Positions 38,293 to 62,372 of a stretch of DNA of 64,000 bases are shown here, piece by piece (within the stretch, counting starts at the first letter, position 1; each line of letters begins with the position of its first letter). This stretch comes from a virus (Duplodnaviria; Caudoviricetes), in IMG/VR virus record IMGVR_UViG_3300015214_000004, positions 10,839 through 74,838 of that record; one strand, written 5' to 3'. Made by a program: the position numbers and the translations under genes. Below the pieces are notes generated by a model that saw only the letters and a list, made by a program, of their open reading frames with translations, was not told the DNA's origin and searched no databases.

Positions 38293-39014
38293 TGGCACAC
38301 ATAACAGCATATAAAACATTAGATGATATTATTAAAACTGCATTGGACAGGGCAGAGGAAGACATATCAAAATATATAAAATATTATGATTTAGCCGTAG
38401 AATGCTATACAAATTTACGGCTGAACCATATAAAAGAAGGTGATGTAGTAGAAAAGTTAAGTGTTAATTCCAATTTAAAAACAGTTGATTTCCCTGACGA
38501 TATGGTTGACTATATTGCCATTGGTATACCAATAAACGGAGAATTGTGGACATTTACAAAAAAACATGGGCTTATAAAAACCACATCATATGCCAATGGC
38601 CAGTATTACTATGATACAGATATTGGAGAAGGGGAAGATATCTTGCAAGACAATGATGATGGGTATAGCGCAAGGGGTGGCGTAAATACAGAGGGGTATT
38701 TTGATGTTGATTTCAAAGAAAAAAGATTTGTGCTAAAAAACACTACCGCAACGACAGTTTGGTTGGCGTATATTACCAGGGGTATTGACCTTAGCCAGAC
38801 GGAACAATATATCAATATAAAATATGAAAAATGTATTATATCATATATAATATGGCAATCAGAAGTATATGTTAAAGGAGTGGCCGCAAACCGGTTATTG
38901 CATTTGGAACGTCAATATGAGCAACAATTAAAAGATTTAAGAAATTCTGAGATCAATTTAGGTGCAATATTAGATTTGTTTTATGAATTATATCATTTAC
39001 AGCGTAGGTTATGA
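38292..39014 (+). CDS. Putative tail ring protein 5
   Basis: VDFPDDMVDY motif; directly before the muzzle gene. Confidence 0.5.
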   Translation: MAHITAYKTLDDIIKTALDRAEEDISKYIKYYDLAVECYTNLRLNHIKEGDVVEKLSVNSNLKTVDFPDDMVDYIAIGIPINGELWTFTKKHGLIKTTSYANGQYYYDTDIGEGEDILQDNDDGYSARGGVNTEGYFDVDFKEKRFVLKNTTATTVWLAYITRGIDLSQTEQYINIKYEKCIISYIIWQSEVYVKGVAANRLLHLERQYEQQLKDLRNSEINLGAILDLFYELYHLQRRL

Positions 39015-48000: not shown

Positions 48001-51000
48001 AGATGGCAGATACCAGATGTTGCCATTAAAAGAAACTGCGCAACCAGGTGTTGAGGCAGCAACGAAGCCGTCTACTGAAAAAGAGGCGGTTTCTGAACCT
48101 TTAAAAACAGAACAAAATGAACCAACAATTAAGCCCACAGAAACTAAAGAAGCTAAAAAGCCTGAACCAAAAGAAGTAACATTTGAGTTTATAGGTGAGC
48201 CAAGAAAAGGTATTATTACGGAACAAGGTGATGGGTTTGTAAAAGTAAAAGATAGCCGGGGAATAAACCATACCATAAAAGAAGGAGATACAAAGTATCG
48301 AAATGTAAAAATGGAAGGGATGGAATTTAAAGAGACGGTTTCTGCTGCTCAAATATTAGATAAAGAAATAGCAAAGACACGTAAAGAAAAACTAACAGAA
48401 AAAGAACAGGAGGTAAAAAATAGACTGGCAGAAAGGTTACAAAAACTTAGCGGAGCTAAATTTATAACCATCGAAGAAAAGTCAAATAATCTGAAAGAAA
48501 TATATGGTGTTATAAATGACCTTGCTGAATTAGGGCTTATTAAAATTGAAAAAGGAATTGATCATGTAATGTCTGAACTAAAAAAATATTTTCCAGATAA
48601 AGATATAGATAAATATAAAACAGACATTGAAGAAAATATATTTGGGAAACAAGAAAAACCAAAAGCAGAAAATTATGATAATGTATTAAAATCTATTGAA
48701 GAAAGAAAAATTGCCGAAAAATCTTTTAGGGAAAAAACAAGGAAAAAAATAAAATCACAATTTAATAAATTGGTGGTTGATAAGTCAGAGAATTTTAGGC
48801 AGAAAATATTGTCAATTGATAAAGAAGAAGGCCAGAGGGCTGTCAACTATTTTAATTTACAGGCAGGGTCATCAAGCAAATCAAAAATGGATTTTGACAA
48901 GGCAAGGCGTAAAATATTTGGAGGAGTTGGGAAAATAATGGACATAAGGGAACAGGAGTTATTGGGAGAATACATAGACAAAAAAAGGATTGTAGAATTA
49001 GATAATCTGTATGACAAAAGAAAACAGGAAAGGTTAAAACATGAAGGTGGTGTTACTGGTGAAGAAGCTCAATTGTTTTTAGATGCTATAAAAAATAAAG
49101 ACCAAAAATTATTAGACAAGTTTAATTTATCAGATGTAGATGCCAAGAAATTAGAAAATGCCGCAAACGAATATTATGATGTGATGCGGAATAATTTAAA
49201 ACGGTTATATGATGAAGGGATTATTTCTGAACAGTCTTATAATAAATTAGCAGAAGAACAACCATTCTATTCAAAGCGAATGTACATAGACCATATAAAC
49301 AGCATAGATGGCAACGGTAAATTAAGTGGTATAGAATCATTAAAAGAGGGAAGTGAATCAAGTAAGGTTGTTGATGTACAGACATTATTGGGCGACAATA
49401 TAACAAGGACAGACCGGATCATATTTGCCAATAGGGCTAAAAAAGCATTGAACGATGTTGCAGTAAAATTCCCTGAAAATGGATATATAGCAGAAGCGGA
49501 ATATTCTAATGAATATTTTAACAAACTGGCAAAGGAACTTGAAAAGCCTGAAAAAGACAGGCAGTTTATAGAACCGTCCTTTAAAGAAGCTCCAAAAGGT
49601 TTTACTATTGTCGAATTTATGGACAATGGCAAAAAGAAAGGTTTCTATTTAGAAAATGAACTGTATAAAGAATATGAATTTAATCCTGACCCTGAATGGC
49701 TTGATTTAACAAAAAACATTATAGGGTGGGCAAGTGGAACAAAATTATTGAAAGCAGGGGCTACTGGGTACAATCCTGAATTCGCCATTAAGAATGTTCC
49801 ATTAGATATGTTGCACATAATGACATCTACCGAGGAGTATTCATCTACATATGCTATTGCCACACCACAGATGTTAAACGATATGCGAAAAGTGTTTAAA
49901 GATGCCTCAACGAGGTCAGGCCGGTTTATTGATTATATGGAGCAAGGTGGTGGAATGGATTATCTTACAACGCAAGGAAGTTTGTCACCAAGAAAATATA
50001 AAAAATATAATAATCTGAACAACGGACTTAAAGCATTGTCGGATGTGGCTTCATATATGGGAAATACCAGTGAGATATTGACACGTTTGGCATTAAGGGA
50101 AAGATATATTGACAATAGGTTAAACGCACTTAAAAAGGAAGGTATTACCCCTACAAAAGAAAATATAAAAGAAATAGAATTTGCGGCAACAGCTTATGCG
50201 AGAAATTATTTAGATTTTGCACAAGGGGGGAAAGCTATAAAACTTATGGATGCCGGGATACCATATCTAAATGCTGGAATACAGGTTACAAGAGGGACTT
50301 TACGGGCGGCGGCGAGAAATAAGAAAGCATTTTGGTACAAGTTTGGTCAATTAGGATTGACCGCAGCAGCAATAACAGCGTATAATATGGGGGTATTTAG
50401 TAGAGGTGACGATGAAGAAAAAAACGAACGTGCCGAATATTATAAAAATGAGATATCTGACAGGAACAAAGCCAATAACTTCATTATAATGACTGGTCTC
50501 AATTATATAGATAAACAAGGAAACAAAAGGTATTTATATATCAAAATACCAAAAGACCAGACACAACAATTAGTGACAGGGCTGTTTGAAGATTTATATT
50601 TAAAATATGTACATGGAGACTCAGAACACCAAATATTAAACGACAGAAGGTTTATGGAGCTGAAAGCATTGACAAAGAATGTTGGTGATGTAGCTGGTAT
50701 GCCTCCAATGATTACTGCTATTACAGGATATAAAAACAATGTGAATTTATTTTATCAAGAAGCAATATGGTATGGAGACGAACTTGGAAAAGACAAGTCA
50801 GAAGAATATTACATAGGAAGAACCCCTGAAAGGTTTATTGAATGGGGAAAATTAACAGGAATGTCACCGGAAAGAACAAGATATGCGACACAACAGTTTA
50901 TTACAGGGTCAAACATGTTTGGGACTATATTGGGTGAAGGTCTTGATTATATGGTTGCCGATTTGGATAAAGAAATAAAAACAGAATTAAATAAAACAAC

Positions 51001-51481
51001 ATCGGAGAAAGTAAAGAATATGCCGTTTGCCAGGAGGTTTATAGGGGAAACAAGCCCTTATTCAAGAGAATCATCAGCAAAAACAGCGCAACAAGAAATA
51101 AACAGAGAGCAGACAAAGAATGACCATGAACTTGATAGAATATTATTAAGTGATTCAAAACCAGATGATATAGTTGATTTTATTGTAAAACAAGAACCTT
51201 ATGAAGCTAAAAGGCTTGTTGATAGATATTTTGACAAGTTAAAATTAGAAGGGGTCAACAAACAGGTAAAAGATTTAATGTTTTATCCCCCGGAAGCAAG
51301 AGCAAAAGGTTTTTATGATATGATAAAAAATAAACCAGACAAAGAAGTGCAAAAGATAATGTCTGATGCTGTAAGGATAGGCGGTATAATAACAGAAGGA
51401 AGATTTATGGAAGAACTTATTAAGTTAAGTTTAGAGGACGGGAAGAAGATACAAGAAATCAAAGCAATAAAAAACAAATAA
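45041..51481 (+). CDS. Large polyvalent cargo protein (GNAT-like and LPD38-like regions)
   Basis: 2146 aa; WIEIDPDKRDHGNGK (GNAT R/Q-x-x-G-x-G-like); ATGYNPEF...N, DF..GG, IPYLNA.IQ of LPD38-like C-termini. Confidence 0.6.
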   Translation: MPNNQIYNFLKENGLTEKSETDFINEYSNPNKANELYLFFKENNLTQKNSDEFYNEYLKKKEDGFRTVAEKGATQKELEKNIGAEFEKPIEILEAESNILTAKNKDLNFVKRATEPDKYPSLQTEDGKEKTHKLEWGDDGVGNYYVYPTIIQDKKTGELKELNSKDAFNYAMESGEYIKTDSPQTAEYYKNNGLLNREQLPEQSDTSEGFRTIHEKINAPNVNDKIEATDIPEYITTIKNKYKEYESGEFQKKAEKGEIDKPPKIEGDIKIMDDKQIPLSAEVFDYEDKSKQKPGSSLEYILEKGYNQSMIGLADAIHNKNYRINPEYLEKYDANTLENTLATAFGFILDAPFFWMGGKAGSTAAKPIVNKIVNNGTQKLVNSGIERKVAEQIAKKSMAKLTGAINSMASSGVALGSYGFTMGAMEQWADPENDFKDIEWSQALARGGKDFLLGTSVGLIGSQFANLGKAAQRIESPITRKTIQTALVPTAITAENTVFIYGGALLDGRKLSDVTAKEFLEGELLLGVLKAKEPIKFAKDFKRSLKYENEKAGKGIYEIDLTQSELNDLKYKNYDEAITDLSKNDAKLTEVFKDKDIPAITKAKLLWGSRGIKWEKNFYADYTYAEGNEVKTFNKEGVLLDKEAFTSKEEANSIAMERQSMIENSKKLQQAASLTESDKAKVINNISVEAEPLNDALRKSPQQRTAEERKMVSDFNKEVDKIIVDAQKKGLYEPIPELRLSDETLYTLNKIEDKEPVINQRIKDAANELFREYQRIGKLKEIPGRKNTIEQLNESRAFLEKEITRLDNMVKEQENTRKFVKDDMNETFNKQEKPKEIKKDEIKFEEKTEVKGVEKPVDIIRKPDAKTETLKEELVQFGDEMPAKKSMVNFLKSDPENTFTTPIVKNGEKIGDITIDKKDKTWDVKWIEIDPDKRDHGNGKDTYRKMNELAQKEGKVLQSDTKPKLNTETAGYVWESLVKSKEAIKTEDGRYQMLPLKETAQPGVEAATKPSTEKEAVSEPLKTEQNEPTIKPTETKEAKKPEPKEVTFEFIGEPRKGIITEQGDGFVKVKDSRGINHTIKEGDTKYRNVKMEGMEFKETVSAAQILDKEIAKTRKEKLTEKEQEVKNRLAERLQKLSGAKFITIEEKSNNLKEIYGVINDLAELGLIKIEKGIDHVMSELKKYFPDKDIDKYKTDIEENIFGKQEKPKAENYDNVLKSIEERKIAEKSFREKTRKKIKSQFNKLVVDKSENFRQKILSIDKEEGQRAVNYFNLQAGSSSKSKMDFDKARRKIFGGVGKIMDIREQELLGEYIDKKRIVELDNLYDKRKQERLKHEGGVTGEEAQLFLDAIKNKDQKLLDKFNLSDVDAKKLENAANEYYDVMRNNLKRLYDEGIISEQSYNKLAEEQPFYSKRMYIDHINSIDGNGKLSGIESLKEGSESSKVVDVQTLLGDNITRTDRIIFANRAKKALNDVAVKFPENGYIAEAEYSNEYFNKLAKELEKPEKDRQFIEPSFKEAPKGFTIVEFMDNGKKKGFYLENELYKEYEFNPDPEWLDLTKNIIGWASGTKLLKAGATGYNPEFAIKNVPLDMLHIMTSTEEYSSTYAIATPQMLNDMRKVFKDASTRSGRFIDYMEQGGGMDYLTTQGSLSPRKYKKYNNLNNGLKALSDVASYMGNTSEILTRLALRERYIDNRLNALKKEGITPTKENIKEIEFAATAYARNYLDFAQGGKAIKLMDAGIPYLNAGIQVTRGTLRAAARNKKAFWYKFGQLGLTAAAITAYNMGVFSRGDDEEKNERAEYYKNEISDRNKANNFIIMTGLNYIDKQGNKRYLYIKIPKDQTQQLVTGLFEDLYLKYVHGDSEHQILNDRRFMELKALTKNVGDVAGMPPMITAITGYKNNVNLFYQEAIWYGDELGKDKSEEYYIGRTPERFIEWGKLTGMSPERTRYATQQFITGSNMFGTILGEGLDYMVADLDKEIKTELNKTTSEKVKNMPFARRFIGETSPYSRESSAKTAQQEINREQTKNDHELDRILLSDSKPDDIVDFIVKQEPYEAKRLVDRYFDKLKLEGVNKQVKDLMFYPPEARAKGFYDMIKNKPDKEVQKIMSDAVRIGGIITEGRFMEELIKLSLEDGKKIQEIKAIKNK

Positions 51482-51513
51482 ATATATTTAGTAAATTTGA
51501 AAAAACAAAAGAC

Positions 51514-51990
51514 ATGAAAAAGATAGCGTTTTTAATAGGTTTTATGGTCACAATGATGTCCTTTGGGCAGTTTTCAGCGCCAAGGTTACATTATTATAAA
51601 GAAATAATAATTGACAGCGTATCCGGCACAGACAGTATATATGTTTACGAAGACGACAATGAAAGGACGCCTTTTAAAATAAAAAGCGGCTATGTCGGTA
51701 TCATTGTAGAATATTATTCAGTAGATGACAATGATGCAACATTTGATATAGGCGTATCAAATGGATATTCATTTAATTCTATTGACACGGCAAAACTTCC
51801 ATTATTGTTAGATTTACAAAATGACAGCGCAAGCGTAAATGGTGTTTTAAAAGGAAATACAGCAGGGGTAACAGCAACAAAAACATGGAAATCAGATTAT
51901 CCTGTACCGTATGAAAATTTAGCCTTTAAACTGATATTGAACAGCGTGTCTTCTGGAACAGTAAAACTTTGGATATATGGTTATGAATAA
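51514..51990 (+). CDS. Signal-peptide-bearing small beta protein (fibre/tail accessory position)
   Basis: MKKIAFLIGFMVTMMSFG-Q signal peptide; 4 D[ST][AILVMT] sequons. Confidence 0.65.
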   Translation: MKKIAFLIGFMVTMMSFGQFSAPRLHYYKEIIIDSVSGTDSIYVYEDDNERTPFKIKSGYVGIIVEYYSVDDNDATFDIGVSNGYSFNSIDTAKLPLLLDLQNDSASVNGVLKGNTAGVTATKTWKSDYPVPYENLAFKLILNSVSSGTVKLWIYGYE

Positions 51991-54900
51991 GATCAAATCA
52001 TTAATAATATTATTGTTTACGTCATGTATCTTGGTTAATTCTCAGGTACAAGACGTTTATAAGAATTATTCATATGACAATTACACGTATTGGATAGGAA
52101 GGAGTTCGAGTAAGTTGGCAGAATTTGAACCAAACATGGTACAATTGGCCAATTATTATTGTATTTACCTTATAGCGAATTATAATTCGGACACAGCAAC
52201 AGCAGATAGTGCAAGGGCTATAATAAATGCTATATGGAACTCTAATTATTCAAGCACGGAAATACCATCATTTCCTAATTTTAATACGTTGTATCAAAAT
52301 GTATTAGATTCCATATCAAATAGCGCTGTGGATAGTTTAGTAACGACTGGATTGGCATCAGCAGACACATTACAATATTATTATTTGATAACAGTGGTAA
52401 ATGACAGTCTTTCTGCAATAAGGGGTGATTTAGTCGGTGTTGTTACAGCCATGAACGATTATGTTTTAACATCGGTATTTACATCTACGCTTACAGACAG
52501 TATGGCCGATATTAGGTCAGAATTATTATCAATAACAAATTCATTAAGCAATTACGTAACAAATACTGTTTTATCTGATAGTTTAGCTTATTATGATGCA
52601 AAAGCACAAGCGTATGTTGATGATACCTTGCCGTCATATACACTATTGTCGGTATTTTTGGACAGTGTTGGTGATTTAAGAGGGGATATATCCTTGTTTG
52701 TACCATCAACCGAATTGACAGATACATTAGCTTATTATTGGACAGGGGTGCGAACAAACGACAGTATAAACGCAAAGATAGCCAGGGACGGGGGGGGAAA
52801 CATTGATGATACATTGTCTTATTATTATTTAGGGGAAAGGGTTGATGACAGTATAGCGGCAGCAATAGCAGCGCTGACATATTTGGATTATACCGGGACA
52901 CCGGCGCAATATTATATTCCTTTTATGTCAGATTTAAATACGATACAAACAAATTCACAATTCAGGTTTACTGGAAATACAAGATTAGTAGATGCGATAT
53001 ATTTAGGGACAAGTGACCCTAACAATTCAACAAGGATAAACTGGAACTACCATGTTTATGCATATGAGATAAATTCTATAAATGGCCTAAATGTATATTA
53101 TCCATTAGGCGCATCTGGAAGCCCGATAGAAATAACAACCCCGTCTTTAACAGCGACACAAAACGACCCGTATATAAGCATATCAAGGGTTCAAAACTAT
53201 GGCAGTAGAAGTTTATTGGGAGATATAATATATGTTGATGATAGCCCTATAACAGTCGGAACAAAGGGGGGGGCAATATTAAGGACGCTGGTAGATGAAA
53301 ATCTCCGTACATTAATTGACCCAAGAGGATATTATGGTGTATCATTTCACCAATGGGGCACATCTATTGATATAGGGACTGATGACCACACGGTATGGGT
53401 AAACCTCAATGATACTATTATGAGGCTTGACACAACCGGATTATATGTTGACAATTTATTTGTTGACGGGACAGATATTGTAGATTTTATTGTAGAACAA
53501 TCGGCAGTTGACAGTACATGGGACATAATAACAATCAATGAAGGGATATTGTTAAATTCAGGTGACACATTAAAAGACATGTACCATTTGAATGACAGTG
53601 TAATGGCTGTTTTAAATAGCGATACAGTATGTGTTTCAGGGTGCAATTCCTTGTTTATGATTTCTTCGTCCGGGGATACCTTAAAAGGAGTGGACTGTAT
53701 TGATGTAAACTGTGATTCGGCTTATGTGCTTATCAATAACAGGACATTAAAAATAACAACAGTCACCCCCGGATATTTACCAACAGGTAATGAAAGTGCC
53801 TTTGACGGATGGGACAAGGATGCGTCAAACGACTTTGATGGGGACTATAATTCACTGACAAACCAGCCGAATTTTGAAGATTCGGTTTTGCTATATGAAG
53901 ATGATTCTACATTTTTAAAAAGCGTAGCCTATTTAATTGATGCGGCAGATACAACGGCATGGAATGCAGAGATTGGAAGTATTTCAGAAGTAGTTGAAGA
54001 TTTAACACCGACATTGGGGGGGGATTTGACAATTGATGGGTATGATTTTGTTGGAAATGCACAGATAACAGGTAATTTAACCGTACAAGGGAATACCTAT
54101 TTAAACACATCATCTACTGACAGTACAACAATATATGGAAAACTTACAATTATAGATGGTATAAACCGGTTGATAGCAGGTAGCGGGGGGATAACATTTT
54201 CAAATGGTAACACATTGGTATCGGTATATCCGTTGAATGATTCTGTAATGGCCGTTGTAGGGACAGATACAATATGTATATCAGGATGTATTGGGTTAAC
54301 GGAAGAAAGCGACCCGGTTTATGCAGCCGATTCTGCCAATTTGGTTGATAGAAATGAACTTACAGACACGGCCACGGCAATTAGGTCAGATATCCCAGAC
54401 ATATCCTCATTAGCTACACAAAGCGCATTGGAAGATACTGCGGCTGCAATAAGGGCGGATATTGGAACTGGAAGTGGGACGGGAGAGACAGATTCAATAG
54501 GTGTAGTTTTGGATGTTGACCTGACAGCAGGGACAACAACGAGCATAAACACGAATCAAAGCGATGCTGTGCCAAAAGTTGTTTCAATCCAAGATACGTC
54601 AAACAACGAACTGGCAGATGATTTATTTGTAGTAGGGTACACGTTGAACACTACATGGTATATCAATATTTATAGTTCAACTGCTTATGACAGCCTTACT
54701 GTTTATTATTTAAAAAATGACCTTGATTATTTAGGTGGAAGTTCGACAACAACCTATGATACAGTAGGGATAAATGATTCGTTAAGGATTGGTGCTACAT
54801 GGTTTACAAGTGATGATATTGGTTCTGGTGGCGGTTCAGGCAATATAACAAGCGCAGTTACACAAAATTTATCTACACAAATAAATAATGGGATATTGCA

Positions 54901-55678
54901 TGTTCGAGGTGATAGTTTATCCACAACCGACAGTTTAAAATGGGAAGATGGTGGATTAAATATAACAGGTAATATATCAATATCAAACGATGCGTTGATA
55001 GGAGACCAAATAAAATATGATAATTTACCATTTCCAAAATTATATTTTACAGATTTTGGTAATGAAGATACTATAATTACATTTGATTTCCGATCAGCAA
55101 AAGCATGGTTATTAAAACATGGAGATAAATTTACCATTGCCTCAGATGAAAGCCATATATCACCAACATTATATAATGTATTATGTCAATTTTGGCACAG
55201 GCCTGATGGATTATTTGATTTTCAACTATATAATCCAAATAAAACAGGAGTGGCTATTAGGTCAAGTGCAGATGATTCGACTATATATTTAAATGCAATT
55301 AATGGAATTGATTTAACTGGACAAGTAACTATTAATAGTTATCTAACAGTTGATGGAAATACAACATTTAACGGAGACAGTAATATTTATTCAGGATATA
55401 TCAGAACCGATTCTGTGATAACACTAACTCAAACTTACGCTGACTACGTATTCCAAGAAGGATATAACACCTCTACATTTGAACAAGACTTAAACTATGC
55501 TTTAGAAAACAAAACCCTTCCCGCCTTACAGGTTAAGAATGGAAACATGGGAAGAAGGATAGAAAGCACGGTAGAACAACTTGAAAGGCTATATCTTCAA
55601 ATGGCAAAAGAACTTGAAAAGCGGGATGAAGAAATAGAACTTTTAAAACAGGAAATTGAACTTTTAAAAAACAGATAA
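51983..55678 (+). CDS. Signal-peptide-bearing fibre protein with a C-terminal chaperone-like (S74-like) coiled-coil domain
   Basis: MNKIKSLIILLFTSCILVNS-Q; internal repeats; ADYVF...Y...LP...VEQLERLYLQM tail. Confidence 0.65.
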   Translation: MNKIKSLIILLFTSCILVNSQVQDVYKNYSYDNYTYWIGRSSSKLAEFEPNMVQLANYYCIYLIANYNSDTATADSARAIINAIWNSNYSSTEIPSFPNFNTLYQNVLDSISNSAVDSLVTTGLASADTLQYYYLITVVNDSLSAIRGDLVGVVTAMNDYVLTSVFTSTLTDSMADIRSELLSITNSLSNYVTNTVLSDSLAYYDAKAQAYVDDTLPSYTLLSVFLDSVGDLRGDISLFVPSTELTDTLAYYWTGVRTNDSINAKIARDGGGNIDDTLSYYYLGERVDDSIAAAIAALTYLDYTGTPAQYYIPFMSDLNTIQTNSQFRFTGNTRLVDAIYLGTSDPNNSTRINWNYHVYAYEINSINGLNVYYPLGASGSPIEITTPSLTATQNDPYISISRVQNYGSRSLLGDIIYVDDSPITVGTKGGAILRTLVDENLRTLIDPRGYYGVSFHQWGTSIDIGTDDHTVWVNLNDTIMRLDTTGLYVDNLFVDGTDIVDFIVEQSAVDSTWDIITINEGILLNSGDTLKDMYHLNDSVMAVLNSDTVCVSGCNSLFMISSSGDTLKGVDCIDVNCDSAYVLINNRTLKITTVTPGYLPTGNESAFDGWDKDASNDFDGDYNSLTNQPNFEDSVLLYEDDSTFLKSVAYLIDAADTTAWNAEIGSISEVVEDLTPTLGGDLTIDGYDFVGNAQITGNLTVQGNTYLNTSSTDSTTIYGKLTIIDGINRLIAGSGGITFSNGNTLVSVYPLNDSVMAVVGTDTICISGCIGLTEESDPVYAADSANLVDRNELTDTATAIRSDIPDISSLATQSALEDTAAAIRADIGTGSGTGETDSIGVVLDVDLTAGTTTSINTNQSDAVPKVVSIQDTSNNELADDLFVVGYTLNTTWYINIYSSTAYDSLTVYYLKNDLDYLGGSSTTTYDTVGINDSLRIGATWFTSDDIGSGGGSGNITSAVTQNLSTQINNGILHVRGDSLSTTDSLKWEDGGLNITGNISISNDALIGDQIKYDNLPFPKLYFTDFGNEDTIITFDFRSAKAWLLKHGDKFTIASDESHISPTLYNVLCQFWHRPDGLFDFQLYNPNKTGVAIRSSADDSTIYLNAINGIDLTGQVTINSYLTVDGNTTFNGDSNIYSGYIRTDSVITLTQTYADYVFQEGYNTSTFEQDLNYALENKTLPALQVKNGNMGRRIESTVEQLERLYLQMAKELEKRDEEIELLKQEIELLKNR

Positions 55679-57639
55679 TGAAAAACATCATAACCATATT
55701 ATTGCTATTAATAAGCAGTTTTGTTTTTTCACAGGACAGGTCACAGGGATGGAAGCCGGAGGAAAAGAAGTTTTATTTTAAAGACAGCTTAAAAATTGAC
55801 GGATATATCATATTCAAGGACGGAGATACAGCTACAATTGTTAAAGTAAATGATTCAATTTGTGTTGTTATTAATGGCGACACTGTCAGGATAGATGGAA
55901 GCGGCAGCATAGATAATGAAACCGACCCTATTTTTACATCAACCGGTGCAACCCAAAGCGCTTTAGAAGACACGGCAAGCGCATTGAGAAGCGCAATAGT
56001 GACAGGCGGTGGCATTGAATCAGACCCCGTGTTCACCGCAAGTGATGCGTTTAACATAACATCAACAGATATAACAAATCTGGGATACCTTTCAGGGACA
56101 AACACCGGTGACCAGGATACGGCATTTATATATGCAAGGATGGATTCTATTATTTATGTATTAAACGACACAATATCAGCAGACAGTATACTTGTATTGA
56201 AAAGAGATACTTTGCAAAATGGTTTAATATGGACGCAAAGACAGATTGATAGTGCGATTACTGCAAATGCAATAACACAGGAGCTAATTGAAGACTATGT
56301 AGGGGCAATGGTGAGTGGCAATACAGAAACAAACATCACCGTTACATATCAAGATGCAGATGGCACATTGGATTTTGTTGCAGAGGCATCAGGGGGAAGT
56401 GGCGGGGCAAGTTCTGATACAGTATTTACAGCATCAAATGACACCGTGACAGCCCCACGTGCAATTAACAGATATCCATTTTATCAAACTAAACAATCAG
56501 TTGATTCGATGTTCATCGATACAACAGGAATGAACAAAAATGCTGTGATAAAACTATCTGTTGTTGACACTACCGGGACTGATTCAATAGTGTTTTACTC
56601 TCAAATACCAATCCGGTTTAAAAACAGCACAGATACTTTTAATAATACGCAAAATGTGTATCATGATTATTGGTTCAACCTCACAGGAACCGGAGCAAGG
56701 TGGAAATGGTTAGGGGAACTAATGGACACCATGTACATAGCAAGTGCCGGTGATGTGACAGCTCCTACATTTGTTAGTGCCGAAATTGGCACATATAATG
56801 ATAGTATTGTTGTTGTCATATTTAGTGAAAACCTACACCAAGATTCGATTCCTTCGAAAGATCAGTTTGGTGTGTCAGAAGGAGGAACAACAATGGGGAT
56901 AGCTGAAATTACTATAAATGCAGATACTTTGTTTATCGCATTGGACAGTGTAGGACATAATGGGCTTACATATACAATGAGTTATACACATACAATTGGT
57001 GATACAGCAATACAGGATAGTTCTTATAATCAAGTCGCTAATTTTGCTGATTCTGCAATCACAAATAATATTTCAAGTGGAAGCATTACATGGCTTTATG
57101 AAGATAATTTTGATTCGTATACAGATGGTGCTTTGGTTGGTCAAGGCAATTGGATTTCAGGTACATTAGGAGCGATAGTTGCTGGTGACCCCGACAACTA
57201 TGTGTATGGGAACACTGGTCTTACGCTGTCATGTGTGATATATAATCAATCATTAAACAATGATCAAAGGGCAGGCATCACAGTTCAATCAATGTCATCA
57301 ACCGGGTTTGTTGGAGCGGGTGTTAGAATAACTGGTTCTGGTGCTACATTAGACGGATATGGTTTCTTTGGCAACAACTCATTGTCACGTATATTTAGAA
57401 TTGATGATGGTGTAAGGACAAATATATCACAAGGAGCAGCATTTTCACCAGGTGATGTTTTGTGGTTGGAAGCAGAAGGAACAACAATTACCCTTTACAG
57501 AAATGGAGTAGTTGACGCAACTCATGATAACAACGGGTTCACAGATGCAAATTATAGTTCAGGACAAGCAGGATTGATGTTGTATGATTCACAACAAACA
57601 TCTAACTGTGATGATTGGAGAGCTGGTAATATTGAATAG
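55678..57639 (+). CDS. Signal-peptide-bearing fibre protein with a C-terminal beta-sandwich (lectin-like) domain
   Basis: MKNIITILLLLISSFVFS-Q; ETDP/ESDP repeats; beta-rich C-terminus. Confidence 0.65.
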   Translation: MKNIITILLLLISSFVFSQDRSQGWKPEEKKFYFKDSLKIDGYIIFKDGDTATIVKVNDSICVVINGDTVRIDGSGSIDNETDPIFTSTGATQSALEDTASALRSAIVTGGGIESDPVFTASDAFNITSTDITNLGYLSGTNTGDQDTAFIYARMDSIIYVLNDTISADSILVLKRDTLQNGLIWTQRQIDSAITANAITQELIEDYVGAMVSGNTETNITVTYQDADGTLDFVAEASGGSGGASSDTVFTASNDTVTAPRAINRYPFYQTKQSVDSMFIDTTGMNKNAVIKLSVVDTTGTDSIVFYSQIPIRFKNSTDTFNNTQNVYHDYWFNLTGTGARWKWLGELMDTMYIASAGDVTAPTFVSAEIGTYNDSIVVVIFSENLHQDSIPSKDQFGVSEGGTTMGIAEITINADTLFIALDSVGHNGLTYTMSYTHTIGDTAIQDSSYNQVANFADSAITNNISSGSITWLYEDNFDSYTDGALVGQGNWISGTLGAIVAGDPDNYVYGNTGLTLSCVIYNQSLNNDQRAGITVQSMSSTGFVGAGVRITGSGATLDGYGFFGNNSLSRIFRIDDGVRTNISQGAAFSPGDVLWLEAEGTTITLYRNGVVDATHDNNGFTDANYSSGQAGLMLYDSQQTSNCDDWRAGNIE

Positions 57640-57640
57640 T

Positions 57641-60430
57641 ATGAGAAAATTAATTACATATATAGTATTGTTAATTGGCTGTGCACTATATTCACAGCCT
57701 ATTGTCGTAGACCATCGTCATATAAAGTACTATGACGATATACCCCAGCAATACATAGATTCAATTAAAAAAAGATGGCTGAGTTATGCAGGGGAATCTC
57801 ATTCGCTTGGTTTACGGGTAGGTTTAGCTGCTTTGGAAGATTCAAATTCTGTTTACCAGGTCAATGTGAGAGAATCAGGCACACCCGAAACAGCCACATC
57901 TAATTATTTACGTGTTTCAAGGGCAACCTGGGGTGACCATGACAACAGCACCGGATGGATTTATTATTATGGGGAAGAAGATTGGTGGACAAACAGTGTT
58001 GCGGTTACAAGAACGAAATCAAGCATTGCATATTGTAATGACAATGGTTACCAATTAGATTATTTCGCATTTGGATGGTGTTGGGACCAGAGCGGTACCA
58101 ATGATGTTGGCGGAAGTTATGACCCTGTGTATTATACAAGATGGGCAGGTAGGAGCGTTGATGGACCTGACGGGAACCAACGATGGGGGCTTGACAGTGG
58201 GGACAGTATATTGACTGATAACCGGGTAAACATGAATACTTATTTGTCAGTGACAAGGGAATATATAGAATATTGTGAATCGAACGGATATCCAACAAAA
58301 GTATTTTTCACAACTGGTCCTGTTGACAACACAGCAGACCCTTTATTGGGTTATGCAACCGGGGAACGTGGATATCAGGGATATTTGAAATGGGAACATA
58401 TAAGGAATTATGTGGACACAACGGATTTTGCATTGTTTGATTTTGCGGACATACTCTCATATAACAATGCAGGTGTTCAGAACACAACCACATGGACAGA
58501 CAACAATGGCACATTGCAGACATTTCCGATTATTGCAGTTGAGAATAGAAATGACTTGTCTGATTACCATTATAGTTTGCAAGGAGCCGTGAAGCTGGCA
58601 AAAGGAATGTGGGTATTCCTTGCCATGATGGAAGGATGGGACACTACGTCAACGGAAAGCACAAGCGACACTACAAAATGGTATATGTCAAATACGGGTG
58701 ACAATAGTTATTCAGGGCATCATCCTGATTCAGCGATAAGGACAATTGCAGAATTGATTACCCGTGACATTGAGCCGGGAGATTCTATATTGTTTGAGGC
58801 TGGTGGGGTTTGGAGGGAGACATTACAAATATTATGGTCAGGCACACAAGGAAATCAAATAACTTTTTCAAGTTATGGAACAGGTAATAAACCAAAATTA
58901 TTAGGTTCAAACGTTGCTACTGACTGGACTGCACAAGGAACGGCGAATATATGGCAGACTGCTACATCACTTTCAAACAGGTCAACAGAATATTATCCGG
59001 GACGGTTGTGGTTCATTGAAAATGATTCAGTGATATGGGGTAGATATAGGGCATGGGGTACTGGTGATTTTAGCAATTTAACACAGGAATATGATTACAC
59101 AGTCAATGGTACTACACATTATGTCTATGCACCAACTGATCCTGACACAAGATATGATTCAATAGAGGTTAATCAACGTCAAAGATGTATAGCTGTGCCG
59201 GATGGTAGTTCAGAAAGTTATTTAACATTTGACGGACTTGAAATAAAATTTGCCCGTTTAGCTGGCTTTGATGCAGGATACCCTGCTTATAGGGGTGCTA
59301 CTGATTTATGTTTCAGAAATTGTGAAATTGGTTATATAGGGGCCACTCCTTCAAATTTTGCCTATGGAATAGCTGCCTGGCACAGTAATTTCCTTGCTGA
59401 GAACAATCTAATCACTGATTGTGGTAGAAGGGGGATTTCAATTAACCTTTATCTTGAAAGGGTTCCCGGGAGCCAACGGAACATCCAAAATATAATTGTC
59501 AGGGACAATATTTTCAAAAGGGGGTATCACACAACCGGTCTTGATTTTAGTAATCAGGCAACCGGAAATGACACACTTGAACACATTTATTTTTACAATA
59601 ATATCGTAGATGATTCAGAATTTAATTCTATCTGTACAAATTGTTATTCAAACCAGGTATTTTTCCAGAAAGGTGATAGCGTGAGTGTAATGAATGATAT
59701 TTATGTGATTGGAAACCTGTTTATTCATGCCTCTGCAAGGAATATTCTTTGTGAAGGCATAGACACAATTTATATTTCAAACAATACGATAATAGGGCAC
59801 AATCCAAATATTGCAGAGAATCCTTATAATAACGTTGGATTTAATTCTAATCAGGCAAATGTGTACTACAGGAACAATATTCTTTATGATAATCTTCCAA
59901 ATAACACAATGCAAAACCATGGTGTTTTCATTTATGATGCTTACACGGGTGTGTTTGAAGCAAAAGATTATAATTTATATTATTCTCTGTTCCCTGGTGC
60001 TGCATCTGATAACAGAAACTTCTCTGCTCATAGGGTTAACAGCAGTGGCGGTATGGGCTATTGGAACACAAATGAATGGAGTTCATATGTATCTACTAAT
60101 ACAGCATTTGAGCAAAATTCACCTTCACCGATAAATCCGTATTTTGTCAATTATAGCAATCATGATTATCATATAACTGACAGTTCAGCAGCTGACAGTG
60201 CAGGGGTTGTTCTTGATTATATAATTGTAACAGACTTATTTGGTGTTGTAGACACAATAAATAAATATGATCTTGATGGATTAGAGATTTCAAGGACTTA
60301 CCCGCCCATCGGAGCATATGCAACGGCAGGAAATGTAGATGGAGAAGAACCTACAGTGCCAGCAACTACGAAAAAAGTCAGGTATGGAAATATGTATATC
60401 AGATATAATGGTAAATTTATAGTTTATTAA
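57641..60430 (+). CDS. Signal-peptide-bearing tailspike-like protein with a right-handed beta-helix
   Basis: MRKLITYIVLLIGCALYS-Q; GDSILFEAG..WRE and Asn-ladder NN.I repeats of pectin-lyase-like beta-helices. Confidence 0.65.
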   Translation: MRKLITYIVLLIGCALYSQPIVVDHRHIKYYDDIPQQYIDSIKKRWLSYAGESHSLGLRVGLAALEDSNSVYQVNVRESGTPETATSNYLRVSRATWGDHDNSTGWIYYYGEEDWWTNSVAVTRTKSSIAYCNDNGYQLDYFAFGWCWDQSGTNDVGGSYDPVYYTRWAGRSVDGPDGNQRWGLDSGDSILTDNRVNMNTYLSVTREYIEYCESNGYPTKVFFTTGPVDNTADPLLGYATGERGYQGYLKWEHIRNYVDTTDFALFDFADILSYNNAGVQNTTTWTDNNGTLQTFPIIAVENRNDLSDYHYSLQGAVKLAKGMWVFLAMMEGWDTTSTESTSDTTKWYMSNTGDNSYSGHHPDSAIRTIAELITRDIEPGDSILFEAGGVWRETLQILWSGTQGNQITFSSYGTGNKPKLLGSNVATDWTAQGTANIWQTATSLSNRSTEYYPGRLWFIENDSVIWGRYRAWGTGDFSNLTQEYDYTVNGTTHYVYAPTDPDTRYDSIEVNQRQRCIAVPDGSSESYLTFDGLEIKFARLAGFDAGYPAYRGATDLCFRNCEIGYIGATPSNFAYGIAAWHSNFLAENNLITDCGRRGISINLYLERVPGSQRNIQNIIVRDNIFKRGYHTTGLDFSNQATGNDTLEHIYFYNNIVDDSEFNSICTNCYSNQVFFQKGDSVSVMNDIYVIGNLFIHASARNILCEGIDTIYISNNTIIGHNPNIAENPYNNVGFNSNQANVYYRNNILYDNLPNNTMQNHGVFIYDAYTGVFEAKDYNLYYSLFPGAASDNRNFSAHRVNSSGGMGYWNTNEWSSYVSTNTAFEQNSPSPINPYFVNYSNHDYHITDSSAADSAGVVLDYIIVTDLFGVVDTINKYDLDGLEISRTYPPIGAYATAGNVDGEEPTVPATTKKVRYGNMYIRYNGKFIVY

Positions 60431-60451
60431 ATAAATTTAAAATGAAAAAAG

Positions 60452-60757
60452 ATGAACACTGGCCATTGGATAACAATAGGAATGTTTGGGGTAACACAGT
60501 TAACAGCATTAATAATAACATATATCAATGTCCGGTTAAAGATAAAAGAACTTGAAATTAAAATAGAAAACATGAAACAGTCTATTCTTGATAAAGAAGA
60601 TTCTTTAAATGAAAAGATAAAGACAAATCAACATTCATTTCATATACATGAACAACAAAATGAACGGATGTTCGACAAGTATGAGAAAAAACTTGATGAT
60701 GTATACGATGTTGTAAGCGAGGTAAAGAATATTTTGATCAACAAAAATTTTAGTTAA
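60452..60757 (+). CDS. Single-TM coiled-coil protein (holin- or spanin-like)
   Basis: N-terminal TM segment then a coiled coil; directly before the endolysin. Confidence 0.5.
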   Translation: MNTGHWITIGMFGVTQLTALIITYINVRLKIKELEIKIENMKQSILDKEDSLNEKIKTNQHSFHIHEQQNERMFDKYEKKLDDVYDVVSEVKNILINKNFS

Positions 60758-61215
60758 TGAGGCCAATAAACAAAATAATAATCCACTGTGCAGCTACGCC
60801 GGAAGGAATGAACGTAGACGCTAAACTTATTGATAAGTGGCATAAAAAAAGAGGGTTTAAAAAGATAGGCTATCACTATTTTATCAAACTTGACGGGACA
60901 ATTGAAAGGGGCCGGCCGATTGAAGAAATGGGGTCGCATTGTTCAGGCCATAATTATGATTCGATAGGAATATGCTATGCCGGAGGGCTTGACAAAAACA
61001 AACAACCAAAAGATACGAGGACATCACAGCAAAAACAATCTTTTGAATATTGGATAAAAGCCCTTGTAGATACATATCCGTCAATCAAAGAAATCAAAGG
61101 GCACAGGGATTATTCTCCTGATAGAAACAAAGACGGCGAGATAAGCCCGGATGAATGGATTAAGGTTTGTCCATGTTTTGATGCTGAAAAAGAATATAAA
61201 CATTTATTGTCATGA
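60757..61215 (+). CDS. Endolysin, N-acetylmuramoyl-L-alanine amidase (Amidase_2, T7 lysozyme-like)
   Basis: IIIHCAAT, IGYHYFI, GICYAGG, GHRD, K.CPCFD zinc-binding motifs. Confidence 0.95.
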   Translation: MRPINKIIIHCAATPEGMNVDAKLIDKWHKKRGFKKIGYHYFIKLDGTIERGRPIEEMGSHCSGHNYDSIGICYAGGLDKNKQPKDTRTSQQKQSFEYWIKALVDTYPSIKEIKGHRDYSPDRNKDGEISPDEWIKVCPCFDAEKEYKHLLS

Positions 61216-61610
61216 GATCATTTATAATATTCATATTATTTACAGTCCAGATCGTCTTTCAAGCAAGATGGGAAGCTGAATTATTGTCACCGGGAACCAG
61301 TAACCATATATATCAAATTGTTCAATTATCATCAATAATATTGTTATTGATAGTTGTGGCAAAGTTTGAACACAACTGGAAACAGATAATGTATATTGGT
61401 ATTGGGTATCCATTGTTACGGTTCTGTTTGTTTGACTATATGATTAATTTCTTCCGTGGATTAAGTTGGAATTACGTTTCATCCGAAGAAAAAATAAAAG
61501 CATATTTAGGTGACAGTATCGCAGTATTAAAGATATCCGCTATGGCAATAGTTGTATATTGTATAATTGCATTTATTATTGAAGAAGAAAATAAAATGAA
61601 AAGAATATGA
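61212..61610 (+). CDS. Membrane protein
   Basis: About 4 hydrophobic segments. Confidence 0.55.
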   Translation: MRSFIIFILFTVQIVFQARWEAELLSPGTSNHIYQIVQLSSIILLLIVVAKFEHNWKQIMYIGIGYPLLRFCLFDYMINFFRGLSWNYVSSEEKIKAYLGDSIAVLKISAMAIVVYCIIAFIIEEENKMKRI

Positions 61611-62140
61611 AAACAAAAAAATATTTAATCGGTAGCCTTGTCCTGACAATCTTCTACCTAATATTGTGTTATGCGCAGTTCGGTATGGCTCCATCAATAA
61701 GCCATTATGCTATTGATTGGAGAGATACAAGCATGCAATATATGCCATTTGTATGGGTAACATCAATACTTGTTATGATAGGGGTATATTGTTTTGATGC
61801 AGGAAAATATGGGTGGATGTTGTTTACATCCATTTTGGTGTTGACGGGTATCGGGTATTTTACCGGATACAACCCTGAATTTATGAACAACAAAGTAGAG
61901 AATTTTATCCATGTTGCTTGTGTGTACATTTCAATACCTCTTGCATTGACATATATTATAATAAGTTCAAAGAGTAAAGGTTTATCTATATTGTTAACAA
62001 TTACATTTTTAATATTTACGGTTCTAATGTTAACATTTGAAGTAAAAAACCATACTACATACATTGAAGAATATTGCTTTGCGGTAATATATTTTTATTT
62101 GATATACCGGGATGATTTGAATATTATTAAAAGTGAATGA
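61607..62140 (+). CDS. Multi-pass membrane protein
   Basis: About 6 hydrophobic segments. Confidence 0.6.
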   Translation: MKTKKYLIGSLVLTIFYLILCYAQFGMAPSISHYAIDWRDTSMQYMPFVWVTSILVMIGVYCFDAGKYGWMLFTSILVLTGIGYFTGYNPEFMNNKVENFIHVACVYISIPLALTYIIISSKSKGLSILLTITFLIFTVLMLTFEVKNHTTYIEEYCFAVIYFYLIYRDDLNIIKSE

Positions 62141-62372
62141 CATGAAAGAATTTTGGATGTATACGGCTATTTTCTTTGCAGGGTCAACAGCAATATTGAC
62201 ATTAATAGTATTTGCACAGATGAAAAGGATGGGGAATGAGATAACAATAAGAAAGCAAGTACAAAGGAACAGAAGGTCTCCAAACAATAACCAGGAATAC
62301 CAGGCATCACAGGAAAATCAAAATAAAAAGAAAAGAAAATTGTTTAATTTAAAACGTAAAAAAAATGAATGA
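62133..62372 (+). CDS. Single-TM protein with a basic tail
   Basis: One TM segment and a Lys/Arg-rich C-terminus. Confidence 0.5.
   Translation: MNDMKEFWMYTAIFFAGSTAILTLIVFAQMKRMGNEITIRKQVQRNRRSPNNNQEYQASQENQNKKKRKLFNLKRKKNE

What the first reader, a model, noticed from the sequence alone, without database searches (positions are those of the whole stretch)
51514..60430. Extreme enrichment of the Bacteroidota O-glycosylation sequon D-[ST]-[AILVMT] only in the signal-peptide proteins
Seen (manual counts): about 40 of 43 D[ST] dipeptides in the 1233 aa protein, 24 of 28 in the 653 aa protein, 14 of 19 in the 948 aa protein and 4 of 4 in the 158 aa protein fit the sequon, versus 0 of 8 in the 2146 aa cargo protein and 0 of 3 in the major capsid protein. 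In the 653 aa protein the sites cover the stalk and stop before the C-terminal head domain. Established: Bacteroidota O-glycosylate extracytoplasmic proteins at this motif in the periplasm. Inference: the phage has selected for dense host-type glycosylation of its fibres, a glycan coat that could give protease resistance, stiffness, host mimicry or receptor interaction. With the signal peptides and the phage glycosyltransferase cluster this forms a coherent candidate system.
Basis: partly seen in the sequence, partly recalled or inferred. Interest (0 to 1): 0.9.

Follow-up and report, generated by a model that had tools for sequence, protein, structure and literature searches.

The report
Exported, sequon-packed crassvirus fibre proteins
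A complete crAss-like phage from landfill puts bacterial export signals on all four of its host-recognition-type late proteins and packs them with four times the chance number of its Bacteroidota host's sugar-attachment motif, so these proteins very probably leave the cytoplasm and are sugar-coated by the host, which is not how tailed-phage fibres are known to be made.

Summary
D-[ST]-[AILVMT] makes up 4/4, 40/43, 24/28 and 14/19 of the D[ST] sites in the four consecutive proteins at 51514-60430. It makes up 0/8 in the 2146-aa protein and 0/3 in the capsid protein.

- **Size of the excess:** pooled, there are 82 sites against 19.4 in shuffles (z 14).
- **Specificity:** the reverse motif, E[ST]phi, D[AG]phi and Dphi[ST] all sit at chance. 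All other ORFs of the 74.8-kb genome pool to 35 against 43 expected.
- **Export signals:** all four proteins start with a signal peptide followed by Gln, the Bacteroidetes Q-rule.
- **Relatives:** homologues of the 653-aa fibre without a signal peptide are not enriched (0.91x). Signal-bearing ones have a median of 2.8x. In the shared Ig-like domain, homologues that lack Bacteroidota-type signals and have ordinary motif counts carry G or A where these carry the motif's D.

Best reading: these are Sec-exported host-recognition proteins that the host's general O-glycosylation system glycosylates in the periplasm. They are a long fibre, a fibre with a lectin head, and an esterase plus beta-helix glycanase.

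Three things remain unproven: that glycan is attached, that the proteins are part of the virion, and that the phage glycosyltransferase cluster is involved.

Cultured crassviruses phi14:2 and crAss001 lack both features. Cellulophaga phage phi18:3 has virion proteins detected by MS/MS that carry signal peptides but are poor in the motif.

This scan has already reported the same pattern in at least 27 other genomes. I found no paper describing it.

The parts
51514..51990 (+). 158-aa small exported partner protein. Signal peptide is residues 1-18 with Gln19 at +1. It has 4 of 4 D[ST] sites in the motif.
   Evidence: By language-model features it resembles only small viral proteins of unknown function (0.90, a lead only). 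No Pfam or PHROG family.
51977..55678 (+). 1233-aa fibre-like protein. Signal peptide is residues 1-22 with Gln23 at +1 (Cys17 lipobox is an alternative). It has 40 motif sites, a motif-free stretch at residues 292-478, and a C-terminal coiled coil.
   Evidence: No sequence relative other than itself. Language-model lead (0.86) to viral tail fibres with a Peptidase_S74 domain. The public gene call starts at residue 47 and so drops the signal.
55678..57639 (+). 653-aa fibre. Signal peptide is residues 1-18 with Gln19. The stalk has 24 motif sites (residues 36-458). An Ig-like domain covers about 360-468 and a ConA/CBM66-like lectin head covers 470-653 with no site.
   Evidence: 2400 relatives. 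Foldseek top hits are the mycobacteriophage Douge baseplate and central fibre, and CBM66.
57641..60430 (+). 929-aa enzyme. Signal peptide is residues 1-18 with Gln19 (Cys14 lipobox is an alternative). It has an SGNH/GDSL-like esterase domain (about 20-330) and a right-handed beta-helix glycanase (about 345-895), with 14 motif sites and no T9SS C-terminal domain.
   Evidence: It is 59% identical to Bacteroidota proteins that carry PF18962. Model pLDDT is 83.
45041..51481 (+). 2146-aa protein just upstream, in the position of a crassvirus cargo or virion RNA polymerase gene. It serves as an internal negative control: no signal peptide and 0 of 8 D[ST] sites in the motif.
   Evidence: Only 32 nt separate it from the first exported gene.
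39011..42499 (+). Crassvirus muzzle-like virion protein. It marks the structural operon and has no enrichment (3 of 11).
   Evidence: PF25729 crAss_MUZ_C, phrog_14478.
60452..62140 (+). Lysis cassette directly downstream: membrane proteins and an Amidase_2 endolysin at 60757-61215.
18330..22639 (+). Cytoplasmic sugar-metabolism cluster: a weak WsaF-like glycosyltransferase match, a GT2 glycosyltransferase, two unknown proteins, and an NAD-dependent epimerase/dehydratase. Any link to the exported proteins is untested.

Best explanation
The four late genes at 51514-60430 encode the phage's host-recognition gear: a 1233-aa fibre, a 653-aa fibre with an Ig-like domain and a lectin head, a 929-aa esterase plus beta-helix glycanase, and a 158-aa partner.

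Proposed mechanism:
1. Each protein is made with a Sec/signal-peptidase-I leader that exposes an N-terminal Gln, so each is exported to the periplasm of a Bacteroidota host.
2. There the host's general O-glycosylation system adds its glycan at most of the 82 D-(S/T)-(A/I/L/V/M/T) sites. Selection has multiplied these sites along the stalks and kept them off the lectin head.
3. Lacking a type IX secretion (T9SS) domain, the proteins stay in the periplasm until the holin and endolysin break the envelope.
4. At that point they most likely join the cytoplasmically built, fibreless particles.

Shown here: the motif excess, its specificity, the leaders, the folds, and the comparative pattern. Inferred: actual export, glycan attachment, and attachment to virions.
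For: **Motif statistics**
- 82 sites against 19.4 in shuffles (z 14.4), with all control motifs at chance.
- The rest of the genome is at 35 against 43 expected.
- Codon use at the sites is diverse.
- The third-position spectrum is I, L, A, V, T, M, S. This matches the set seen in glycoproteomes (PMC12871550).

**What the review says**
- The motif is used only in non-cytoplasmic proteins and is nearly fully occupied.
- An engineered motif becomes glycosylated.
- Glycosylation works across species.

**Export signals**
- All four proteins have a K/R-containing N-terminus, a hydrophobic core, and Gln at +1. This is the Bacteroidetes Q-rule (PMC5837995).
- In bacterial homologues of the 929-aa protein, the mature end aligns at the same Gln.

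**Comparative evidence**
- Among 150 representatives related to the 653-aa fibre: 106 without a leader pool to 0.91x, and 26 leader-bearing ones have a median of 2.82x (Mann-Whitney P 9e-7). Eight leader-bearing head-only proteins are depleted (2 against 9.5 expected).
- In the shared Ig-like domain, the giant homologues that lack Bacteroidota-type signals and have ordinary motif counts (presumably from other phyla; their taxa are not recorded) carry G or A where the leader-bearing ones carry the D.
- Site positions partly turn over between relatives: 56 alignment columns hold a site in only one sequence.
- Two other viral contigs show leader-bearing proteins with z of 6.0, 9.0 and 4.4, next to unenriched virion genes without leaders.

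**Virion link**
- The genes lie between virion genes and the lysis cassette, on the same strand, with overlaps or gaps of 32 nt at most.
- No other fibre-like gene turned up among the ORFs examined.
- Folds resemble a phage baseplate fibre, a lectin, and tailspike-like beta-helices.
- Cellulophaga phage phi18:3 gp085-087 are annotated as structural by MS/MS, and each carries a Q-rule leader.
Against: - No experiment of any kind. There is no RNA, proteome or glycoproteome for this uncultured phage.
- The host is unknown. It is inferred to be Bacteroidota from the Q-rule, the crassvirus genes and the nearest homologues.
- Signal peptides were judged by a hydropathy heuristic and by homologues, not by a trained predictor.
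- The public gene call for the 1233-aa protein starts downstream of the leader.
- No recognisable virion-attachment domain follows the leaders.
- The cultured crassviruses phi14:2 and crAss001 make fibres without leaders and without enrichment. The route is therefore not a general property of the order.
- The one experimental precedent for leader-bearing virion proteins (phi18:3 and its relative phi46:3) is poor in the motif, not rich (3 against 9.6, and 3 against 15.5).
- About half of the sites in the 929-aa enzyme are inherited from bacterial relatives.
Confidence: 0.62

Rival explanations
1. The proteins are exported and glycosylated but are not virion parts. They act as free or envelope-bound factors: glycan-degrading enzymes and lectins released at lysis to clear capsule or destroy receptors on debris, or periplasmic or surface proteins that block superinfection.
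For: - The nearest relatives of the 929-aa protein are chromosomal secreted enzymes of Bacteroidota.
- No virion-attachment domain was recognised.
- Virions assemble in the cytoplasm, so exported proteins are physically separated from them until lysis.
- P. gingivalis phages carry Q-rule proteins that were interpreted as modifiers of the host surface (PMC10367356).
Against: - The genes sit inside the late virion-to-lysis gene string, and no alternative fibre gene turned up among the ORFs examined.
- The 653-aa protein shares stalk modules with many fibre-like proteins that lack leaders, and its model matches a phage baseplate fibre.
- Leader-bearing neighbours of the same kind were detected in purified phi18:3 virions.
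Confidence: 0.25
2. The D-[ST]-hydrophobic excess is a structural or compositional feature of fibre and beta-helix folds, such as turn or helix-cap motifs, and has nothing to do with glycosylation.
For: - Some sites are conserved in position within the Ig-like domain and the beta-helix.
- In the beta-helix model several sites sit at the turn just before a strand.
Against: - Homologues with the same modules but no leader are at or below chance (0.91x). The same Ig-like positions hold G or A in the giant homologues that have no motif excess.
- Only the exact tripeptide is enriched. Neither E nor N variants at comparable level, nor the reverse motif, show it.
- The enrichment spans four unrelated folds but only the exported proteins of this genome.
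- Exported fibre proteins of Cellulophaga phages are significantly depleted, which a fold requirement would not predict.
Confidence: 0.06
3. The phage's own glycosyltransferase cluster supplies or remodels the glycan. Either it alters the lipid-linked host glycan before it is flipped, or it glycosylates the proteins directly. This would give a phage-specific coat, the first reader's 'coherent system'.
For: - A GT2 glycosyltransferase, an NAD-dependent epimerase/dehydratase and a weak WsaF-like match are real.
- Host glycans are assembled on the cytoplasmic face by soluble glycosyltransferases (PMC12871550), so cytoplasmic phage enzymes could in principle edit them.
Against: - The cluster is 28 kb away, in the early/middle region.
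- A TnpB-type transposon gene lies between it and the virion module.
- None of its proteins has a leader or a multi-pass membrane domain, and the genome has no flippase- or ligase-like protein.
- Phage glycosyltransferase clusters more commonly modify surface polysaccharides or DNA (own knowledge).
- Two related viral fragments that carry sequon-rich leader proteins show no GT2, but they are only about 45% complete.
Confidence: 0.1

Closest known systems
Substrates of the general protein O-glycosylation system of Bacteroidota (review PMC12871550)
   Same: - The same three-residue acceptor motif with the same third-position spectrum.
- Non-cytoplasmic targeting by Sec leaders.
- Some chromosomal T9SS cargo relatives of the 929-aa protein are equally dense in the motif (3.9-5.8x).
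   Different: - These are phage late proteins with fibre and tailspike architecture.
- Density is one site per 31 residues in the longest protein, against a pooled 1.3x in 119 homologues of the 929-aa enzyme (those named or context-checked are bacterial).
- No phage protein is mentioned as a substrate in the review (0 occurrences of 'phage').
Cellulophaga phage phi18:3 gp085-gp087 and phi46:3 gp079-gp083 (Pachyviridae; GenBank KC821620, KC821622)
   Same: - Consecutive tailspike- or pectate-lyase-like late proteins, each with a Q-rule signal peptide.
- The phi18:3 proteins are annotated as structural from MS/MS of virions.
   Different: - They are depleted in the motif (3 against 9.6, and 3 against 15.5 with P 1e-4), not enriched.
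- They come from a different phage family with no sequence similarity to the window's proteins.
Tail fibres and spikes of cultured crassviruses: crAss001 gp22-gp26 and phi14:2 gp091-gp097
   Same: Same viral order and the same kind of proteins: beta-helix spikes, lectin and fibres.
   Different: They have no signal peptides and no motif excess (z from -1.5 to 1.6), so they are assembled in the cytoplasm. In crAss001 the fibre genes lie after the portal gene, whereas here they lie after the cargo genes.
Mycobacteriophage virion glycosylation by phage-encoded glycosyltransferases (Freeman et al. 2023, from my own knowledge; cited by papers listed)
   Same: A tailed phage whose virion proteins carry glycans, and a phage genome that holds glycosyltransferase genes.
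   Different: - There, capsid and tail-tube proteins are glycosylated in the cytoplasm by phage enzymes.
- Here, the capsid protein has no motif site, the candidate substrates are exported, and the transferase would be the host's periplasmic enzyme.
Q-rule signal-peptide proteins of Porphyromonas gingivalis prophages (PMC10367356)
   Same: Bacteroidota phage genes whose products carry host-type leaders with Gln at +1.
   Different: Those are proteins of unknown function, interpreted as modifiers of the host surface. No fibre architecture and no glycosylation motif analysis was reported (0 occurrences of 'glycosyl').

Membership tests
Substrate of Bacteroidota general O-glycosylation | Acceptor motif D-(S/T)-(A/I/L/V/M/T) | tested here: met
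   82 sites in four proteins, 4.2 times the shuffle expectation, with control motifs at chance.
Substrate of Bacteroidota general O-glycosylation | Non-cytoplasmic location (Sec signal peptide or membrane topology) | tested here: met
   All four proteins have a hydrophobic leader with Gln at +1. The leader is conserved in relatives of the 653-aa and 929-aa proteins. This rests on a heuristic and homology only, with no trained predictor and no experiment.
Substrate of Bacteroidota general O-glycosylation | Produced in a Bacteroidota cell that has the glycosylation machinery | tested here: inconclusive
   The host is unknown (landfill metagenome). Bacteroidota is inferred from the Q-rule, the crassvirus genes, and relatives 59% identical that carry T9SS domains or are named Bacteroidales.
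Substrate of Bacteroidota general O-glycosylation | Glycan demonstrably attached to the Ser/Thr | not testable with these tools
   Needs glycoproteomics or a mass-shift assay.
Tailed-phage receptor-binding fibre or tailspike | Fibre, lectin or beta-helix architecture | tested here: met
   - 653 aa: repeat stalk, Ig-like domain, ConA/CBM66-like head, with top fold hits to the phage Douge baseplate fibre.
- 929 aa: beta-helix like glycoside hydrolases, lyases and tailspikes.
- 1233 aa: only a language-model lead.
Tailed-phage receptor-binding fibre or tailspike | Encoded within the late virion operon | tested here: met
   The genes lie between the cargo genes and the lysis cassette, on the same strand, with overlaps or gaps of 32 nt at most. 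No terminator-like site lies in the gaps between these genes; the scan's eight hits, not above the shuffles, all fall inside coding sequence.
Tailed-phage receptor-binding fibre or tailspike | N-terminal domain that docks on the tail | tested here: inconclusive
   The N-termini are leaders. No family was recognised after them, and the stalk of the 653-aa model has low confidence.
Tailed-phage receptor-binding fibre or tailspike | Physically present in virions | not testable with these tools
   The only support is a precedent in another family: phi18:3 gp085-087, detected by MS/MS.
Type IX secretion cargo | C-terminal sorting domain (PF18962) | tested here: not met
   No Pfam hit in any of the four proteins. 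In the 929-aa protein only about 35 low-confidence residues follow the beta-helix, whereas many of its bacterial relatives carry PF18962.
Phage-encoded virion glycosylation (mycobacteriophage type) | Phage glycosyltransferases acting on capsid or tail proteins in the cytoplasm | tested here: inconclusive
   Glycosyltransferase genes are present. However, the capsid has 0 motif sites, the motif-rich proteins are exported, and there is no membrane transferase.

The most novel reading that the evidence does not exclude
A tailed phage builds its particle in two compartments. Heads and tails assemble in the cytoplasm. The whole receptor-binding apparatus is sent through Sec into the periplasm, trimmed to pyroglutamate, and coated with roughly 80 host O-glycans. 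It meets the particle only when the envelope is breached at lysis. The virion would then wear a glycan coat made by its host, with site density tuned up or down by selection: rich here, depleted in Cellulophaga phages.
Probability: 0.4. Interest if true: 0.85.

Novelty: new variant of a known kind. Interest (0 to 1): 0.72.

Why it matters
- **Assembly.** Tailed-phage assembly is taught as a cytoplasmic process, and phage fibres are assumed to be unmodified. If fibres of many Bacteroidota phages mature in the periplasm and carry host glycans, the assembly pathway needs a post-lysis or envelope-coupled step.
- **Applied consequences.** Host range, antibody recognition and protease stability of gut and environmental phages would depend on the host's glycosylation genotype. 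Recombinant fibres made in E. coli would lack a major feature.
- **New use for the motif.** The Bacteroidota O-glycosylation motif would also serve as a readable mark of which phage proteins see the periplasm.
- **Testability.** The claim can be tested directly with existing genetics in Bacteroides or Flavobacterium.

Tried and rejected
**Searches that found nothing or too little**
- Megablast and tblastn of the region, the three large proteins and the capsid protein against GenBank phages: no match.
- Related loci in IMG/VR: none for the 1233-aa protein, the 653-aa protein or the C-terminal half of the 2146-aa protein. The terminase found one 9-kb contig, too short to reach any fibre genes. 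A family-wide survey of this phage's own relatives was therefore not possible.
- The first alignment was too diverse for the locus search.
- The word-index search for the 1233-aa protein found only itself.
- PDB sequence searches: nothing.
- The contigs carrying the sequon-rich relatives P0028 and P0023 are 4-5 kb, too short to tell phage from cell.
- Promoter and terminator scan of 50500-62500: not above shuffles.
- No RNA holder is listed for this DNA.
- Five literature searches found no paper on exported or host-glycosylated phage fibres.

**Ideas rejected**
- The 397-aa plus-strand ORF at 23516-24709 is not a membrane transferase. It is the antisense shadow of a TnpB/Cas12f-like gene on the minus strand.
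- The excess is not a DNA-level motif.
- The excess is not due to recent internal duplication.

**Inconclusive**
- The GT2 search in two related viral fragments was negative, but both are only about 45% complete.
- The absence of sites in the 653-aa head is not significant on its own (0 against 1.0 expected). Only the pooled head-only relatives show depletion.
Full report
**What the window is.** It is bases 10839-74838 of a 74,838-bp IMG/VR virus record with direct terminal repeats, estimated 100% complete. The record was recovered from landfill metagenomes of two studies.

It is a divergent crAss-like phage. The evidence is a terminase (phrog_6681), a portal (phrog_6547), a muzzle protein (PF25729 crAss_MUZ_C, phrog_14478) and a 2146-aa protein in the cargo or virion-polymerase position. 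Nearly all genes are on the plus strand.

The finding covers four consecutive genes between that 2146-aa gene and the lysis cassette. The cassette includes an Amidase_2 endolysin at 60757-61215.

**The observation.** I translated every ORF of 100 aa or more and counted D[ST] and D[ST][AILVMT] against 2000 composition-preserving shuffles.

| Protein | Motif sites / D[ST] sites | z |
|---|---|---|
| 158 aa | 4/4 | 3.9 |
| 1233 aa | 40/43 | 10.1 |
| 653 aa | 24/28 | 9.4 |
| 948 aa | 14/19 | 5.8 |
| 2146 aa | 0/8 | -2.3 |
| capsid | 0/3 | -1.2 |

Pooled, the four proteins hold 82 sites against 19.4 expected (z 14.4). The excess belongs to the exact tripeptide only:
- The reverse motif, E[ST]phi, D[AG]phi, Dphi[ST] and D.[ST] are all at chance.
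- N[ST]phi is mildly up (26 against 17.1).
- After D[ST] the next residue is A/I/L/V/M/T in 87% of cases, against 27-53% after the other commoner residues before S/T (the five rarest, 1-8 sites each, scatter 0-80%).

The sites use 16 different codon pairs, and BLAST finds no significant internal repeats. All remaining ORFs of the whole genome pool to 35 observed against 43 expected, with 33% of D[ST] followed by phi.

Two small ORFs without a convincing leader carry four sites each. This is a minor blemish on 'only'.

**The leaders.** All four proteins begin with a K/R-containing N-terminus, a hydrophobic core and Gln at +1: FG|Q19, NS|Q23, FS|Q19 and YS|Q19.
- The 948-aa ORF most likely starts at its 20th codon (57641). 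That start abuts the stop of the upstream gene and matches the public 929-aa gene call.
- Gln at +1 is the Bacteroidetes Q-rule for signal peptidase I substrates (PMC5837995).
- In bacterial relatives of the 929-aa protein the mature end aligns at the same Gln.
- Two of the leaders also contain a Cys that could serve as a lipobox.
- I had no trained signal-peptide predictor, so export is an inference.

**What the proteins are.**

*653-aa protein.* It has 2400 relatives in the representative library. Its model has a low-confidence stalk, as expected for a monomer of a trimeric fibre. It has a confident Ig-like domain at about 360-468 and a beta-sandwich head at 470-653. Foldseek matches the Ig-plus-head part to the baseplate and central fibre of mycobacteriophage Douge, and the head to CBM66 and other ConA-like lectins.

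*929-aa protein.* It models well (pLDDT 83) as an SGNH/GDSL-like esterase followed by a right-handed beta-helix. The helix resembles GH120, GH136, BT_1002, pectate lyases and phage tailspikes. Its closest relatives, up to 59% identical, are proteins of which many carry the T9SS sorting domain PF18962; the few with a source name are from Bacteroidota or Bacteroidales MAGs, and the three whose contigs I read lie among ordinary chromosomal genes. The phage copy has no such domain, so it would remain in the periplasm.

*1233-aa protein.* It has no sequence relative. There is only a language-model lead to viral fibres with a Peptidase_S74 domain (0.86).

*158-aa protein.* It resembles only small viral proteins of unknown function.

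**Is the motif excess selected, or a by-product of the folds?** Five comparisons bear on this.

1. Among the 150 best representatives related to the 653-aa fibre:

| Group | n | Motif observed/expected |
|---|---|---|
| No leader | 106 | 0.91 (pooled) |
| Leader, 'SPEKMSYQAVIR' type | 10 | 0.98 |
| Other leader-bearing, mostly MKK...Q | 26 | 2.82 (median; Mann-Whitney P 9e-7 against no leader) |
| Leader, head domain only | 8 | 2 sites against 9.5 expected (P 0.004) |

2. In the shared Ig-like domain, the giant homologues that lack Bacteroidota-type signals and have ordinary motif counts (presumably from other phyla; the library holds no taxa) have G or A exactly where the leader-bearing ones have the D of four motifs. 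Examples are GS[AT]V against DSLF, and LAS against LDS. The fold therefore does not need the Asp.

3. Across 14 leader-bearing relatives, 56 alignment columns carry a site in only one sequence, while a few columns are shared by 10-13 sequences. Density is kept while positions turn over.

4. The 119 relatives of the 929-aa enzyme pool to 1.3x against 3.9x for the phage copy. Three chromosomal T9SS proteins reach 3.9-5.8x, so dense motifs also occur in true host secreted proteins. About half of the phage enzyme's 14 sites are inherited.

5. Two other IMG/VR contigs that share the Ig-like domain show the same picture. Leader-bearing late proteins have z of 6.0, 9.0 and 4.4, and lie beside unenriched virion genes without leaders.

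**Cultured controls.**
- *phi14:2* (a Cellulophaga crassvirus). Its virion proteins, verified by MS/MS, have no leaders and no excess.
- *crAss001*. Fibres and spikes gp22-gp26 likewise have neither.
- *phi18:3* (Pachyviridae). gp085-087 are annotated 'structural protein, experimental MS/MS', and each carries a Q-rule leader. This is public, uncommented evidence that leader-bearing spike-like proteins can end up in virions of a Bacteroidota phage.

The phi18:3 proteins, and the five equivalents in phi46:3, are depleted in the motif (3 against 9.6, and 3 against 15.5 with P 1e-4). The motif therefore seems to be under selection in exported phage proteins in both directions. That fits a motif with a consequence, namely glycosylation, better than a neutral one.

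**What is established about the motif.** According to the review PMC12871550:
- The motif is used only in non-cytoplasmic proteins.
- Asp is almost obligatory and Glu is not tolerated in B. fragilis.
- The third residue is most often L, I, V, T, A, S or M.
- Sites are nearly fully occupied.
- An engineered motif becomes glycosylated.
- Proteins are cross-glycosylated between species.

It follows by inference that any exported protein with 82 such sites would be heavily glycosylated in such a host. The review does not mention phages.

**The glycosyltransferase cluster.** A GT2, an NAD-dependent epimerase/dehydratase and a weak WsaF-like match are real. All are cytoplasmic and lie 28 kb upstream. 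A TnpB/Cas12f-like gene on the minus strand lies between the cluster and the virion module. The apparent 397-aa plus-strand ORF in that position is its antisense shadow. The genome has no large multi-pass membrane protein. The proposed link to fibre glycosylation is therefore untested speculation.

**Verdict.**
- The best explanation is Sec export plus host O-glycosylation of the phage's host-recognition proteins. I put export and glycosylation at about 0.75, and all steps including virion attachment at about 0.4-0.6.
- I found no paper describing this. The nearest are a passing note on Q-rule proteins in P. gingivalis prophages (PMC10367356) and the MS/MS annotations above.
- This scan has already reported the same pattern in at least 27 other genomes. 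Those are AI notes, not independent evidence. I re-tested the phi18:3 lead myself.

Noticed in passing
window 23465-24691 (minus strand): A TnpB/Cas12f-like gene (PF07282 at 3e-23, OrfB_IS605) lies on the minus strand between the sugar-metabolism cluster and the terminase. The 397-aa plus-strand ORF at 23516-24709 is its antisense shadow, not a real gene.
   Followed up: partly
window 12394-12948; genome 3824-4315 (upstream of the window): Two small ORFs (184 aa and 163 aa) without a convincing signal peptide carry 4 motif sites each (4/6 and 4/4, expected 0.4-0.7). This is unexplained.
   Followed up: no
L025 (crAss001) 25093-25695, gp27; L015 (phi14:2) 39231-39809, gp087: Small membrane-anchored or leader-bearing proteins in the lysis regions of two cultured crassviruses are rich in the motif (4/4 with z 6.9; 4/5 with z 4.6). 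Periplasm-facing lysis proteins of Bacteroidota phages may also be glycosylated.
   Followed up: no
L021 6344-14946 (phi46:3 gp079-083); L022 3348-9040 (phi18:3 gp085-087): Leader-bearing spike-like structural proteins of Cellulophaga Pachyviridae are significantly depleted in the motif (3 against 15.5, and 3 against 9.6). This is the opposite of the window's proteins.
   Followed up: partly
L006 3964-5769, L007 6451-8361, L008 411-2339: Chromosomal Bacteroidota T9SS cargo proteins related to the N-terminal esterase domain carry 14-17 motif sites (3.9-5.8 times expected). Sister proteins with the same domain have none. Motif density therefore varies sharply between lineages of one family.
   Followed up: partly
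P0051, P0054, P0057, P0069, P0073, P0077, P0103, P0112: The lectin head of the 653-aa fibre also exists as stand-alone leader-bearing proteins of about 220 aa. These almost completely lack the motif (2 against 9.5 expected).
   Followed up: partly
window 51977-52114: The public gene call for the 1233-aa protein starts at residue 47 (1187 aa) and so omits the signal peptide. Automated annotation may systematically hide such leaders.
   Followed up: no
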